From assembly GCA_012295275.1 (NCBI GenBank), contig CM022675.1, positions 13,764,001 to 13,828,000 on the forward strand: a DNA stretch of 64,000 nt. Reading direction: 5' to 3'. The position numbers and the translations under genes are program-made. Positions 9,471-60,200 of this stretch are shown here, in pieces. The DNA is from Chrysomallon squamiferum. Taxonomy: Eukaryota > Animalia > Mollusca. Within the stretch, counting starts at the first letter, position 1. Each line of letters starts with the position of its first letter. The notes under the pieces were generated by a model that was given only the letters and a program-made list of their open reading frames with translations, was not told where the DNA came from and made no database searches.

Positions 9471-12400
9471 TTAACATTTCTGAGGGCAAACTTTTTTGTT
9501 TGTTTTACAAAAACGTGTTTTTCCTCTCACAAGTGACCGGTGCATCCTTCTTTTACAAAACTTTGTTGCTTTATCACGACATTTCCACGACATTTCTAGT
9601 GAAAAAAAAAGAGGAAAAAAATGTGAAAAAATACAAAAACAAACCCAGAAACAATGAAATAAATAAATAAACAATGAATTTAACTTTGTCACAACTGTGT
9701 CATGTTTTATGCGCTGTAGATCGATGAGAAATGAATTAATGAGCACGTATGTAAATACATCACCATGTATGAACAATAAAAACAACAGATTGTAAACTGA
9801 CTTTCATCATCATCATCATCATCATCATTATCATTATTATTAGTAGTACTGTTATTATTGTTGTTGTTGTTGTTGTTGTTAGTAGTATTACTAGTAGCAG
9901 TTTGTTTTCTTTTTTCCTGGTCAAAATTTTTATGATATAATTACAAATGTATTTCTTCAGAATTATACTATTTTCAGAACTGATTCAATTAGAATAATTA
10001 CAAGTGTCAGCACTGACTTAATCCAGCTAATAATGCTAATAATATTTATGTTATCAGAATAATATTGCTTTAAATATTAACTTAATGATAATAACATTGC
10101 AGTAAAGTTTAACTTAATGAGAATAATTTTGCTGTAAATACTAAATAAAACAGAGTAATATTGCTGTTAATATTGACTAAATCAGAGTGATATTGCTGTA
10201 AATATTGACTAAATCAGAGTGATATTGCTGTAAATATTGACTAAATCAGAGTGATATTGTTTAAATATTGACTAAATCAGAGTGATATTGTTTAAATATT
10301 GACTAAATCAGAGTGATATTGTTTAAATATTGACTAAATCTGTGTAATCCTGGTGTGAACAGTGTGCTTACCGCTGCCACAGTTCTGACACGAAGACCTG
10401 CAGCGTTTCAACATGTGTCTTTTCATGCACATCCGCGTCCTGATTATCATAATTGATTTCCATTGTTCCTTCGAGCAGACTGGAGAAATATAGCATTTCT
10501 AATATACCATCTATTTCACTTACATTAACCGTCCTTTCCTAATACAAACAGACACTTATTGTCACACACCTAACCTTGTCACAAAACTATACTTATCACA
10601 CACACCTAGACTTGTCACATACTTAGCCTTTTCACAACCTAACCTTGTCACAAAACTATACTTATCACACACACCTAGACTTGTCACATACTTACCCTTT
10701 TCACACACCTACACTTGTCACACACCTACAACTGTCACACACCTACACTTGTCACACACCTACACCTGTCATACATCTACACTTGTCAAACAACTGCACT
10801 TGTCACACACCTACAACTGTCATACAACTACACTTGTCAAACAACTGCACTTGTCACACACCTACACCTGTCACACACCTACACCTGTCACACAACTACA
10901 CCTGTCACACACCTACATTTGTCACACAACTACACCTGTCACACATCTACACCTGTCACACAACTACACCTGTCACACAACTACACCTGTCACACAACTA
11001 CACCTGTCACACATCTACACCTGTCACACAACTACACCTGTCACACACCTACATTTGTCACACAACTACACCTGTCACACACCTACATTTGTCACACAAC
11101 TACACCTGTCACACAACTACAACTGTCACACATCTACACCTGTCACACAACTACAACTGTCACACGCCTACACTTGTCACACACCTACACCTGTCATACA
11201 ACTACACTTGTCAAACAACTGCACTTGTCACACACCTACACTTGTCACACACCTACAACTGTCACACATCTACACTTGTCATACATCTACACTTATCACA
11301 CACCTACACTTGTCATACATCTACACTTGTCATACAACTACACTTATCACACACCTACACTTGTCATACATCTACACTTGTCATACACCTACATTTGTCA
11401 TACATCTACACTTGTCATACAGCTACACTTGTCATACATCTACACTTATCACACACCTACACTTGTCATACATCTACACTTGTCATACAGCTACACTTGT
11501 CATACATCTACACTTGTCATACATCTACACTTGTCATACACCTACATTTGTCATACATCTACACTTGTCATACAGCTACACTTGTCACACACCTACACCT
11601 GTCATACACCTACACCTACACTTATCACACACCTACCCTTGTCACAGGTTGTGCCATAGTAACCAGTCAAACATTTACATCTGCAGGCTTCTCTAACCAG
11701 TGTTCCCTGGTTCTCACACACCATCTCTGGACACTCGTCTGTAACAGAAATACTGTTTAGTCCACACTTAAACTACAGTGTTACTATAGTGTTACTACAC
11801 TCTTACTATAGTGTTACTACAGTCTTACTTTAGTGTTACTACAGTCTTACTATAGTGTTACTACAGTCTTACTTTAGTGTTACTACAGTCTTACTACAGT
11901 GTTACCACAGTGTTAGTACTGTGTTATTACAGGTAGTTCTTTCGAGTCAGTGATTACTGTACTCTGTTAATTGTTTTATAGTTCTCTGGATCAGTGATCG
12001 ATTCTTGATCTTGGATTTCTCTACACTCAGAGTCTAGCAGTACTCAGTCTGACGGGTTTTGGAACTGGACTCTTTTAACGTTGCCCAGGCTCCCTGACGC
12101 TGTGATCGGTTCTCGTGTCATCTCTTCGTTCTCTAATCTCCATGTTCTCTTGCTTGTAGCTTCGTCATCAGAAGCCGTGACGTCATCAGTGGCTGTGACG
12201 TCATTCCTGACTGTTGCTTACTTTGGCTATAACTGTTGCTTACTTTGGCTTTAACTGTTGTACTTTTTAACAAAAGTTATTACATTTGTATGTTAGAGAG
12301 TATTTTAATGAGAATTTTCATGTAAGTGGTAGTTAGTATTTTAATGTTTATCTTAGTGAGTATTTGAATGCATATGTTAGCGAATATTTCAATGAATGTG

Positions 12401-57200: not shown

Positions 57201-60200
57201 AAGTAGTGTGTTTACTCATTAATAACAACTAAGTAAGTAGTGTGTTTATTCACTAATATAAACTAAGTAAGTAGTGTGTTTACTCATTAATAACAACTAA
57301 GTATGTAGTGTGTTTATTCACTAATATAAACTAAATAAGTAGTGTGTTTACTCATTAATAACAACTAAGTATGTAGTGTGTTTACTCACTAATATGAACT
57401 AAGTAAGTAGTGTGTTTATTCACTAATATAAACTAAGTAGTGTGTTTATTCACTAATATAAACTAAGTAAGTAGTGTGTTTACTCACTAATATAAACTAA
57501 GTAAGTAGTGTGTTTACTCACTAATATGAACTTAGTAAGTAGTGTGTTTATTCACTAATATAAACTAAGTAGTGTGTTTATTCACTAATATAAACTAAGT
57601 AAGTAGTGTGTTTACTCACTAATATAAACTAAGTAAGTAGTGTGTTTATTAACTAATATGAACTAAGTAAGTAGTGTGTTTATTCACTAATATAAACTAA
57701 GTACGTAGTATGTTTATTAACTAATAACAACTAAGTATGTAGTGTGTTTATTCACTAATATGAACTAAGTAAGTAGTGTGTTTATTCACTAATATAAACT
57801 AAGTAAGTAGTGTGTTTACTCACTAATATGAACTAAGTAAGTAGTGTGTTTACTCACTAATATAAACTAAGTAAGTAGTGTGTTTACTCACTAATATAAA
57901 CTAAGTAAGTAGTGTGTTTATTCACTAATATGAACTAAGTAAGTAGTGTGTTTATTCACTAATATAAACTAAGTAAGTAGTGTGTTTACTCACTAATATG
58001 AACTTAGTAAGTAGTGTGTTTACTCACTAATATAAACTAAGTAAATAGTGTTAACTCACTAATATAAACTAAGTAAATAGTGTTAACTCACTAATATAAA
58101 CTAAGTAAATAGTGTGTTTATTCACTAATAAAAACTAAGTAAGTTGTGTGTTTACTCACTAATAAAAACTAAGCAGTTTATTGATTTAATAATGTAAACT
58201 AAATAAGTACTCATCATAATGGTTATTATTATTATTATTATTATTATTATTATTATCATTATTATTATCATTATTATTTATTTATTTATTTATAATCTCA
58301 CTGTTAATATATATATTAGTTTTAACACTTTTGACAATTTATTTTTTTCAGTCAAGTTTAACAATTCTGAATATAAACTAAGTAAGTAGTGTTTATTCAC
58401 TAATATAAACTAAGTGAGTAGTGTGTTTACTCACTAATAAAAACTAAGTAAGTAGTGTTTATTCACTAATATAAACTAAGTGAGTAGTGTGTTTACTCAC
58501 TAATAAAAACTAAGTAAGTAGTGTGTTTATTCACTAACTAATACAAACTAAATACATAGTGTGTGTATTCACTAATATAAACTAAGTAAGTAGTGTGTGT
58601 ATTCACTAATAAAAACTAAGTAAGTTGTATGTTTACTCACTAATATCAACTAAGCAGTTTATTCATTTAATAATGTAAACTAAATAAGTACTCATCATAA
58701 TCGTTATTATTATTATTATTATTATTATTATTATTATTATTATCATTATTATTTATTTATTTATTTATAATCTCACTGTTAATATATATATTAGTTTTAA
58801 CACTTTTGACAATTTATTTTTTTCAGTCAAGTTTAACAATTCTGAATATAGACTAAGTAAGTAGTGTGTTTATTCACTAACTAATACAAACTAATAAGTA
58901 GTGTGTTTATTCACTAATATAAACTAAGTAAGTAGTGTGCTTATTCACTAATAAAAACTAAGTAAGTAGTGTGTTTATTTATTTATTTATTTATTTATTT
59001 ATTATTTTTATTACTTTTAACACTTTTAACATTTTTTTTTTCAGCCCACTTTAACAGTTTTCTACTGTAATTTTCAATCACTGTGAAGAACAAAATAACA
59101 ATATTTCATGAAGATGTCATTAAAATATTTAATTTCATTTTTTATGGGTTTGTTTTATTATTTGTTTCTTTTTGGCTGGAAAGACATTCATCTAACACTT
59201 TTTACTCCCAGTGCTGTTGGCCATCAGGTGAAGAAGTTCAAAACTCATCCTCAATGAATGTTTGTTTAATTTCACACACCAGCAGAACATCCAGGATTTC
59301 CACCAGTAAATCAGAGTAAATCCATCATTTTCTACAATAACAGAAAACGAGAGATCTACATTAGTTTTATTCTGAACTGCAGTTATTAAACTTTAATTTA
59401 AGTCTAGTTTTATCAGTCGTCAATGTGATATGAATCTGTGGCGAAGTGAATATTGCACACTGATGATCATAACAGATATTATTATTATTATTATTTTTAT
59501 TATTATTATTATTATTATTATTATTATTATTACTATTATTAGTATTATCATCATCATCATTATTATTATTATTTTGATTATTATTATTATTATTATTATC
59601 ATTATTGTTGTTTATTATTATTGTAGTTCATTATTATTATGTTTATTATATTATTATTATTATTATTATTATTATTTATTATTATTATGTTTTTGTTTGG
59701 GCTTTTTTGTTTTTGATTTGCTATGTTGCTATATTTTGTTTATTGAAGACAGGAAAATCACTGTATTTTCAGTGATAAGGCATTAAAACATTATCATTTG
59801 TTTAAATATTTTCAATCCATACAAGAAAGTACTGAGAACTTTTTTAGTGGATGTAAGTAATGAATGAATTTATGCTATCAACATAAAATTACTTAACAGT
59901 TTCCTGATTTCAAAATACAAAACTTACCACCTGCGAAATTTCCATGAATCTCTCACATCCAAAAACATAACAAAATGGTGTTGGCAATGTTTAATGAATT
60001 TTCAACATTTCGGTGCACAAAAAAAATAAATGTTTAGCCATTGAAACATCAGGCGAAGCACAAGACATCCCCCCACACCCCACAGCATTCCTGTTTTGTG
60101 TTAATGGAGTTCAGAGCATGTCTGTTTTTCTTTTAACTGAAACTTTTCTAGATTTTGTAACAGTTTTATGTCTGGACTGTTACTGAGGTAAAATAACTTA

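What the first reader, a model, noticed from the sequence alone, without database searches (positions are those of the whole stretch)
10555..58980. Recurrent splice-junction-seeded minisatellites in three unrelated genes
Seen: at least 9 intronic arrays have a unit that is a copy of the neighbouring exon-intron boundary. Donors: 11637 (17 bp), 18765 (56 bp), 44551 (32 bp), 46649 (43-nt exon tail plus spacer), 50284 (55 bp), 51876 (50 bp), 55706 (29-34 bp), 56824 (34 bp), and more degenerately 42857. Acceptor: 12858 (35 bp). The units are mutually unrelated, so each arose locally. The frame-preserving site is always the exon-proximal copy. The dominant unit lengths are not multiples of 3, or read-through meets an early stop. 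Inference: a mechanism that preferentially starts tandem amplification at splice junctions (for example transcription- or splicing-coupled breaks, or R-loops) drives intron growth here. The spliceosome must then ignore, or use for regulation, dozens of decoy sites. I do not know of this being described as a systematic phenomenon, but I cannot search the literature.
Basis: partly seen in the sequence, partly recalled or inferred. Interest (0 to 1): 0.85.

Follow-up and report, generated by a model that had tools for sequence, protein, structure and literature searches.

The report
Splice-junction "mirage" minisatellites in three genes
In this repeat-rich animal (likely mollusc) DNA, eight introns hold head-to-tail copies of their own exon border and splice signal, a repeat type already named "mirage" in lancelets and known from human genes, and the spliced RNA seen at two of them uses the first, genuine signal, so it is likely a dense but ordinary example and not a new mechanism.

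Summary
The arrays are real. Eight of the ten named sites pass an objective own-intron copy test (7 donors, 1 acceptor); 42857 and 55706 fail, and two older acceptor copies were missed. Independent DNA runs hold the 51876 array and show the 50284 duplication is polymorphic (1 copy, 2x55 bp, or a 74-bp unit). RNA contigs of 2 runs (one study) use the exon-proximal donor at both sites laid. The kind is known: lancelet "mirages" (PMC3087553, PMC3902484) and human F7, CBS, 6-16, lamin B2 and PDGF repeats, where the upstream donor wins (PMC1557585). This scan has noted it before in other genomes. Enrichment depends on the null: 8 junction arrays of 26 versus 1.6 expected on raw length, but 3.6-6.8 once arrays are collapsed (p 0.018-0.35). 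What remains is a 2-4x excess at the donor end, and it covers arrays that only start near the donor as much as those that cross it. Avoidance of 3n units is not significant. Best reading: ordinary local duplication plus a survival filter in formerly short introns. A donor-end mutation bias is not excluded, but one hand-picked window cannot show it.

The parts
10559..11646 (-). 17-bp donor array (63.5 copies) after the EGF exon 11637-11738 of gene A; 8-10 exon bases per unit; most copies have a weaker donor than the real one
12848..13321 (-). 35-bp acceptor array (13.6 copies) before exon 12778-12858 of gene A; 24 intron + 11 exon bases; 1 of 12 upstream copies has the real site's CAG, 4 have GAAG
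18485..18777 (-). 56-bp donor array (5.2 copies) after exon 18765-18866 of gene B; 4 copies with a donor identical to the real one
44540..45610 (+). 32-bp donor array after cadherin exon 44463-44551; 33 of 33 donor contexts keep GT; 12 exon bases
46607..48679 (+). donor array after exon 46532-46649; unit = 43-nt exon tail + intron head + variable (GT)n; 23 of 24 contexts keep GT
50250..50357 (+). 55-bp two-copy donor duplication at 50284; polymorphic (single copy in run X7, 74-bp unit with 3 extra letters at the joint in run X2); RNA uses 50284
51866..53714 (+). 50-bp donor array (37 copies) after exon 51762-51876; 24 of 39 contexts keep GT; present in DNA runs X7 and X2; RNA joins 51876 to the exon at 53940
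56824..58979 (+). 34-bp array starting at the donor of exon 56763-56824 (about 1 exon base); 46 of 52 contexts keep GT; interrupted by two copies of a block of about 480 bp
55714..56176 (+). 29-34-bp array that abuts the donor at 55706; fails the junction-copy test; few copies keep a usable donor
42874..43161 (+). degenerate AT-rich 29-bp array just after the donor at 42857; fails the junction-copy test
30295..59053 (+). host gene C: Fat-like cadherin, 24 exons modelled; one frameshift inside the large exon; 3 introns and 2 outward joins seen in RNA contigs
9495..13463 (-). host gene A: small secreted-type Cys-rich protein with one EGF-like exon (predicted; no RNA laid)
18060..20045 (-). host gene B: small secreted-type protein, no Pfam hit (predicted; no RNA laid)
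985..1164 (-). same 35-bp acceptor array (5.1 copies) in a partial paralog of gene A (481-2516); not an independent origin

Best explanation
These are mirage-type minisatellites: short stretches across or at an exon border are copied head to tail into the intron, most likely by ordinary local DNA duplication followed by copy-number drift, and they likely persist because the exon-side splice site keeps being used while repeats born inside exons would be purged. Shown: the units are contiguous genomic copies of their own junction; one duplication is polymorphic; RNA uses the first donor at two sites; no array lies wholly in an exon; collapsed introns are short. Inferred: a first duplication by slippage or end-joining (3 extra letters at the 74-bp joint), growth by unequal exchange (copy number differs between paralogs, 5.1 against 13.6), neutrality through upstream-donor preference as in human F7, and a high junction share mainly because a 17-90-bp unit in a 100-300-bp intron often touches a border.
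For: Own-junction copies at 7 of 30 donors and 3 of 30 acceptors. 42% of the window is tandem repeat, and 16 of 26 intronic minisatellites do not touch a junction. 0 arrays inside 7,398 exon bases against about 12 expected. Median collapsed intron 273 bp; either-junction count 8 against 3.6, 5.1 or 6.8 under three collapsed nulls (p 0.018, 0.11, 0.35). RNA contigs in 2 of 2 RNA runs splice 50284 to 50621 and 51876 to the 53940 exon; DNA runs show a single-copy allele and a 74-bp allele. Distal use would shift the frame or meet a stop at all 9 named donors. Upstream-donor scanning was shown by mutagenesis for the same layout in F7 (PMC1557585); lancelet mirages do not disturb splicing (PMC3087553).
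Against: Donor-side excess survives every null tried: 7 against 0.8-3.4 expected (p 9e-6 to 0.036). In introns of 200 bp or more when collapsed, 10 of 20 arrays span or start within 50 nt of a donor against 4.1 expected (p 0.002) and 1 at the acceptor end; dropping two doubtful arrays and changing the zone leaves p 0.005-0.03. Purging at exons and branch points does not by itself explain an excess over intron middles. Microsatellites show no such bias (12 of 29 in the 5' half). RNA evidence covers only 2 of 8 arrays, one study, and contigs drop rare isoforms.
Confidence: 0.65

Rival explanations
1. A mutational bias at the donor end of introns (for example breaks or slippage tied to transcription, pausing, R-loops or nucleosome edges) would make minisatellites arise more often within about 75 nt of a 5' splice site; crossing the junction would be a by-product of that zone.
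For: Donor-zone excess 10 of 20 against 4.1, acceptor zone 1, stable to zone size 25-100 nt; donor-only 7 against 1.8-3.4 on collapsed nulls; absent for microsatellites.
Against: One window, chosen because it shows the pattern; the donor-only and zone tests were picked after seeing the data; n = 20-26; intron middles may be younger insertions, which inflates the excess; low-complexity arrays were set aside by a filter, which favours exon-near seeds; two older acceptor copies narrow the asymmetry to 7 of 30 against 3 of 30 (Fisher p 0.30).
Confidence: 0.22
2. The decoy sites are kept by selection as regulators: occasional use of a distal copy would send transcripts to nonsense-mediated decay, or the copies would bind U1 and tune splicing of the intron.
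For: Identical donor 9-mers in the copies at 18765, 44551, 46649 and 50284; 0 of 9 fixed unit lengths are 3n; partial use of second copies is reported for human CBS and 6-16 (PMC1557585 introduction).
Against: Only the proximal donor seen in RNA contigs at 2 sites; a single-copy allele exists at 50284; copies have decayed at 11637, 51876 (15 AT-type against 19 GT-type), 56824 and 12858; 3n avoidance is not significant.
Confidence: 0.06
3. The units are RNA-templated (lariat or spliced-RNA copies put back at the locus), which would tie them to splicing directly.
For: Two arrays begin within 3 nt of the donor (56824, 55706).
Against: The other seven confirmed units are contiguous genomic sequence across the border, with no exon-exon or branch joint; short exon overlap is also expected when copies homogenise away from the constrained exon copy (inference).
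Confidence: 0.03
4. The arrays are assembly artefacts of noisy long reads.
For: One frameshift in the large cadherin exon suggests indel errors in the assembly.
Against: Independent short-read DNA runs hold the 50-bp units at high depth (649 against about 44 in X7) with their own variants and join them to the true downstream flank; a related 74-bp joint is in X2; copies carry structured variants and the 35-bp array occurs in two paralogs.
Confidence: 0.04

Closest known systems
Lancelet 'mirage' minisatellites: Adh3 (Canestro et al. 2002, paper not held; known only through citation), globins BflGb6 and BflGb9 (PMC3087553; abstract, section 16 and legend passages read), troponin C and PGBD5 (PMC3902484; passages read)
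   Same: Tandem copies of an exon-intron border, on donor or acceptor side, unrelated units of 10-160 bp, several per locus, copy number differs between haplotypes, many but not all copies keep GT/AG, normal splicing in the RNA seen.
   Different: Here in a likely mollusc; 8 arrays in 30 introns of one window, up to 63 copies; one unit carries its own (GT)n microsatellite; somatic instability not tested.
Human junction-spanning VNTRs: F7 intron 7 (37 bp), CBS intron 13, 6-16 intron 2, lamin B2 (100 bp), PDGF intron 4 (81 bp) (PMC1557585; abstract, introduction passages and whole Discussion read)
   Same: First unit spans the exon end; identical pseudo-donors follow; the most upstream donor is used.
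   Different: Single cases per gene in human; CBS and 6-16 show some use of the next copies, which contig-level RNA here could not reveal.
Variable internal tandem repeats at exon-intron boundaries in human segmental duplications (PMC2812944; passages read)
   Same: Repeats at exon borders vary in number between paralogs, as the 35-bp array does here (5.1 against 13.6 copies).
   Different: That study stresses new introns and alternative transcripts; no new intron or alternative form was seen here.

Membership tests
mirage minisatellite (exon-intron boundary tandem repeat) | Tandem unit that contains the gene's own exon-intron border | tested here: met
   7 of the 10 named sites carry 8-43 exon bases plus intron bases; 56824 starts at the donor with about 1 exon base; 42857 and 55706 fail
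mirage minisatellite (exon-intron boundary tandem repeat) | Copies lie in the intron and many keep GT or AG | tested here: met
   e.g. 33 of 33 (44551), 23 of 24 (46649), 24 of 39 (51876), 46 of 52 (56824), 54 of 63 (11637)
mirage minisatellite (exon-intron boundary tandem repeat) | Normal splicing at the exon-proximal site | tested here: met
   Met at 2 of 8 arrays (50284, 51876) in 2 RNA runs of one study, contigs only; the other six have no direct RNA test
mirage minisatellite (exon-intron boundary tandem repeat) | Length polymorphism between haplotypes or individuals | tested here: met
   50284: one copy in X7, 74-bp unit in X2, 2x55 bp in the window; 35-bp array differs between paralogs
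mirage minisatellite (exon-intron boundary tandem repeat) | Somatic instability (reported for lancelet Adh3) | not testable with these tools
   Needs raw long reads or PCR from several tissues of one animal
   Either junction 8 against 3.6-6.8 (p 0.018-0.35); donor only 7 against 1.8-3.4 (p 0.001-0.036); crossing given donor-near 7 of 15 against 6.4 (p 0.47); one selected window, no whole genome held

The most novel reading that the evidence does not exclude
In this lineage minisatellites are born preferentially in the roughly 100 bases around 5' splice sites, through a transcription- or splicing-linked mutational bias, and this donor-end birth drives a large part of intron growth (30% of intron bases in this window lie in the eight junction arrays). 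That would give mirages a cause, which the lancelet papers call unclear.
Probability: 0.22. Interest if true: 0.6.

Novelty: new member of a known kind. Interest (0 to 1): 0.25.

Why it matters
As it stands it extends a known repeat type to a likely mollusc at high density and gives natural test cases for splice-site choice among dozens of identical donors; it also warns annotators that such copies look like extra exons. The polymorphic 50284 site catches an array at birth (1 copy, 74-bp unit, 55-bp unit). It would matter more if a genome-wide test confirmed a donor-end birth bias, since PMC3087553 says the way these repeats arise is unclear and my ten searches returned no genome-wide test.

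Tried and rejected
No whole genome is held, so no test beyond the window. 42857 and 55706 rejected as clear junction copies (42857 reaches 10 of 300 shuffles and 55706 42 of 300). A hidden exon-tail match in the 56824 unit rejected (92 of 300 shuffles). 3n avoidance rejected as a signal. A general 5' bias of all repeats rejected: microsatellites 12 of 29 in the 5' half, and first-repeat distances do not differ between intron ends (Wilcoxon p 0.27). The donor weight matrix was built from the same 30 donors and its 'at least as good' count is affected by rounding (46649 shows 0 although copies are identical), so I rely for identity. Homology searches gave only distant relatives: cadherins at about 30-39%, a Haliotis Fat-4-like protein covering 87% of the query at 25% (the only basis for 'likely mollusc'), one unnamed 53% hit for the gene at 22.4-25.4 kb with no useful Atlas hit (best 0.83). 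Runs X10 and X11 hold next to none of the words and were not used. Literature searches returned nothing; others returned only general papers seen as listings and not read; one returned only PMC3087553. Canestro 2002 is not held. No supplements were opened; those of PMC3087553 hold the mirage alignments and could refine the comparison.
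Full report
Setting. The window is AT-rich animal DNA, 42% tandem repeat by TRF (26,646 of 64,000 bases). 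No whole genome is held. I modelled four genes with 30 introns. Gene C (+, 30295-59053) is a Fat-like cadherin: its exons join in phase once the acceptor is set at 44463, with one frameshift inside the large exon, and Pfam finds cadherin domains. Gene A (-, 9495-13463) has a signal-peptide-like start, a Pfam EGF_2 exon and Cys-rich exons. Gene B (-, 18060-20045) is a small secreted-type protein without a Pfam hit. A fourth gene (-, 22427-25402) has one modelled intron and no junction array. The only pointer to the taxon is a Haliotis protein that covers 87% of one cadherin exon at 25% identity, so 'mollusc' is likely, not shown.

Observation. To avoid judging by eye I aligned the 24-mer across each of the 60 junctions to its own intron and to 58 cross-intron controls. 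Seven of 30 donors (11637, 18765, 44551, 46649, 50284, 51876, 56824) and three of 30 acceptors (12858, 39737, 59045) beat all controls. 42857 and 55706 do not; they only lie next to a donor. 56824 passes on intron bases alone, with about one exon base. The acceptor copies at 39737 and 59045 are older, diverged and were not listed. Units are unrelated apart from short AT-rich or donor-motif matches. The eight arrays hold 9,015 of 30,299 intron bases.

Independent data. Nine of 11 listed runs hold the cadherin stretch, from three studies, two on record as RNA. I laid four runs on 50080-52000 (all are assembled contigs). Both RNA runs (one study) splice 50284 to 50621, 50850 to 51097 and 51276 to 51762, and leave 51876 into the sequence of the 53940 exon. 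Both junction arrays in that stretch are therefore spliced from the exon-proximal donor. DNA-like run X7 has a contig that skips 55 bases at 50284, a single-copy allele. Run X2 has a back-joint from 50357 to 50232 with three letters between, a 74-bp unit. The window's 55-bp unit shares that intron breakpoint and is shorter by the 19 bases between two 9-base direct repeats in the exon, so one origin followed by a deletion is the simplest reading (inference). The 50-bp array is in both DNA runs, at depth 649 against about 44 in X7, and joins the true downstream flank. X9's 6,376-base contig leaves 726 bases after the 56824 exon, which fits a splice to 59045 and an end near the ATTAAA at 59782; this is indirect. 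Contigs drop rare forms, so low distal use is not excluded. The other six arrays have no direct RNA test.

Is it more than chance? I curated 26 minisatellites (unit 10 bp or more, not low-complexity) in the 30 introns; 18 further TRF clusters of that kind were left out because they lie outside these introns, are microsatellite-like or were merged. Collapsing every repeat to one unit shrinks the introns from 30,299 to 12,839 bases, median 273. Eight arrays touch a junction (10 with the two doubtful ones). Expected: 1.6 on raw length (p 1e-4), 3.6 on collapsed length (p 0.018), 5.1 with introns capped at 600 (p 0.11), 6.8 within each host intron (p 0.35). For donors alone, 7 against 0.8, 1.8, 2.5 and 3.4 (p 9e-6, 0.0014, 0.0098, 0.036). 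No array lies wholly inside 7,398 exon bases, where about 12 would be expected for 26 survivors, so a strong filter is at work. Among 20 arrays in introns of 200 collapsed bases or more, 10 span or start within 50 nt of a donor against 4.1 expected (p 0.002), and 1 at the acceptor end; the 12858 array and the two diverged acceptor copies are outside that count. The excess holds for zones of 25-100 nt and after dropping 50354 and 42857 (p 0.001-0.03). But within the donor zone, crossing the junction is as common as chance gives (7 of 15 against 6.4; p 0.47). Microsatellites show no 5' bias (12 of 29). With the older acceptor copies the donor-acceptor contrast is 7 of 30 against 3 of 30 (p 0.30). 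All these tests are on one window picked for the pattern, and the donor tests were chosen after seeing it.

Frames and decoys. Use of any distal donor would shift the frame or meet a stop at all nine named donors. That is expected by chance in such introns (probability 0.22 that none is 3n and stop-free), and 0 of 9 against 3 of 16 units of 3n length is not significant. Copies are identical to the real donor at 18765, 44551, 46649 and 50284, and weaker at 11637, 51876 and 56824. At the 12858 acceptor only 1 of 12 upstream copies has the real CAG.

Mechanism. Best (0.65): ordinary short tandem duplication, then growth by unequal exchange, filtered by splicing. A donor-crossing duplication leaves the exon and its first donor intact, and the upstream donor is preferred; an exon-internal one is purged. 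Short ancestral introns make border contact common. Shown: contiguous genomic units, polymorphism, proximal use at two sites, empty exons, short collapsed introns. Inferred: the repair route, neutrality, and scanning in this animal. Main rival (0.22): a mutation bias at the donor end of introns, which the residual 2-4x excess allows. Regulatory decoys (0.06), artefact (0.04) and RNA templating (0.03) are weak.

What is known. PMC1557585 (abstract, introduction passages, whole Discussion) describes the F7 37-bp VNTR whose first unit spans the exon end, lists 6-16, CBS, lamin B2 and PDGF as further cases, and shows with 50 constructs that the most upstream donor is chosen. PMC3087553 (passages) names such repeats 'mirages' in lancelet Adh3 and globins, at both borders, calls them possibly a more general phenomenon there, finds normal splicing and length instability, and says the mechanism is unclear. 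PMC3902484 (passages) adds troponin C and PGBD5. PMC2812944 (passages) covers repeats at exon borders in human paralogs. The term 'mirage' reached me through earlier notes of this scan, which list 14 such findings in at least 11 genomes; I checked it in the papers. Ten searches returned no genome-wide enrichment test, but the library lacks most subscription papers.

Verdict. A real, dense set of mirage minisatellites: new member of a known kind, interest 0.25. The open point, a donor-end birth bias, needs the whole genome and rare-allele data.

Noticed in passing
window 481-2516 (-): Partial paralog of gene A (74-87% identity in blocks). It keeps the signal-peptide exon and the 35-bp acceptor array (5.1 copies) but lacks most of the exon after it; its 11-bp array has about 60 copies against 14.6.
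   Followed up: partly
window 3547-4941 (-) and 6673-6779 (-): Broken 18S rRNA fragment in two pieces and a 5S-like match, lying between inverted repeats at 2684-3292 and 6278-6901 (85% identity); may be a captured piece in a transposon-like block.
   Followed up: no
window 32465-33096 and 34691-35331: Inverted repeats of about 640 bp at 94% identity inside the longest cadherin intron; looks like a DNA transposon insertion.
   Followed up: no
window 41399-42857 (+): The large cadherin exon changes frame once near its middle while both halves match Pfam Cadherin; probably an assembly indel, not checked against reads.
   Followed up: partly
window 12045-12260 (-): Possible alternative last exon of gene A inside its third modelled intron (55 open codons in phase). 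A 22-bp repeat (12210-12260) ends at its putative acceptor, so it could be one more acceptor mirage; not counted.
   Followed up: partly
window 50354-50443 (+): Degenerate 39-bp repeat right after the 50284 duplication with a CAG|GTAATT core that scores like the real donor; may be an older donor array.
   Followed up: partly
window 58305-58841 (+): The diverged copies of the last acceptor would each give a different 2-codon ending with the stop at the same place, so their use would barely change the protein.
   Followed up: no
window 22427-25402 (-): Gene with a 346-codon last exon, no Pfam hit and one unnamed homolog at 53% identity.
   Followed up: partly
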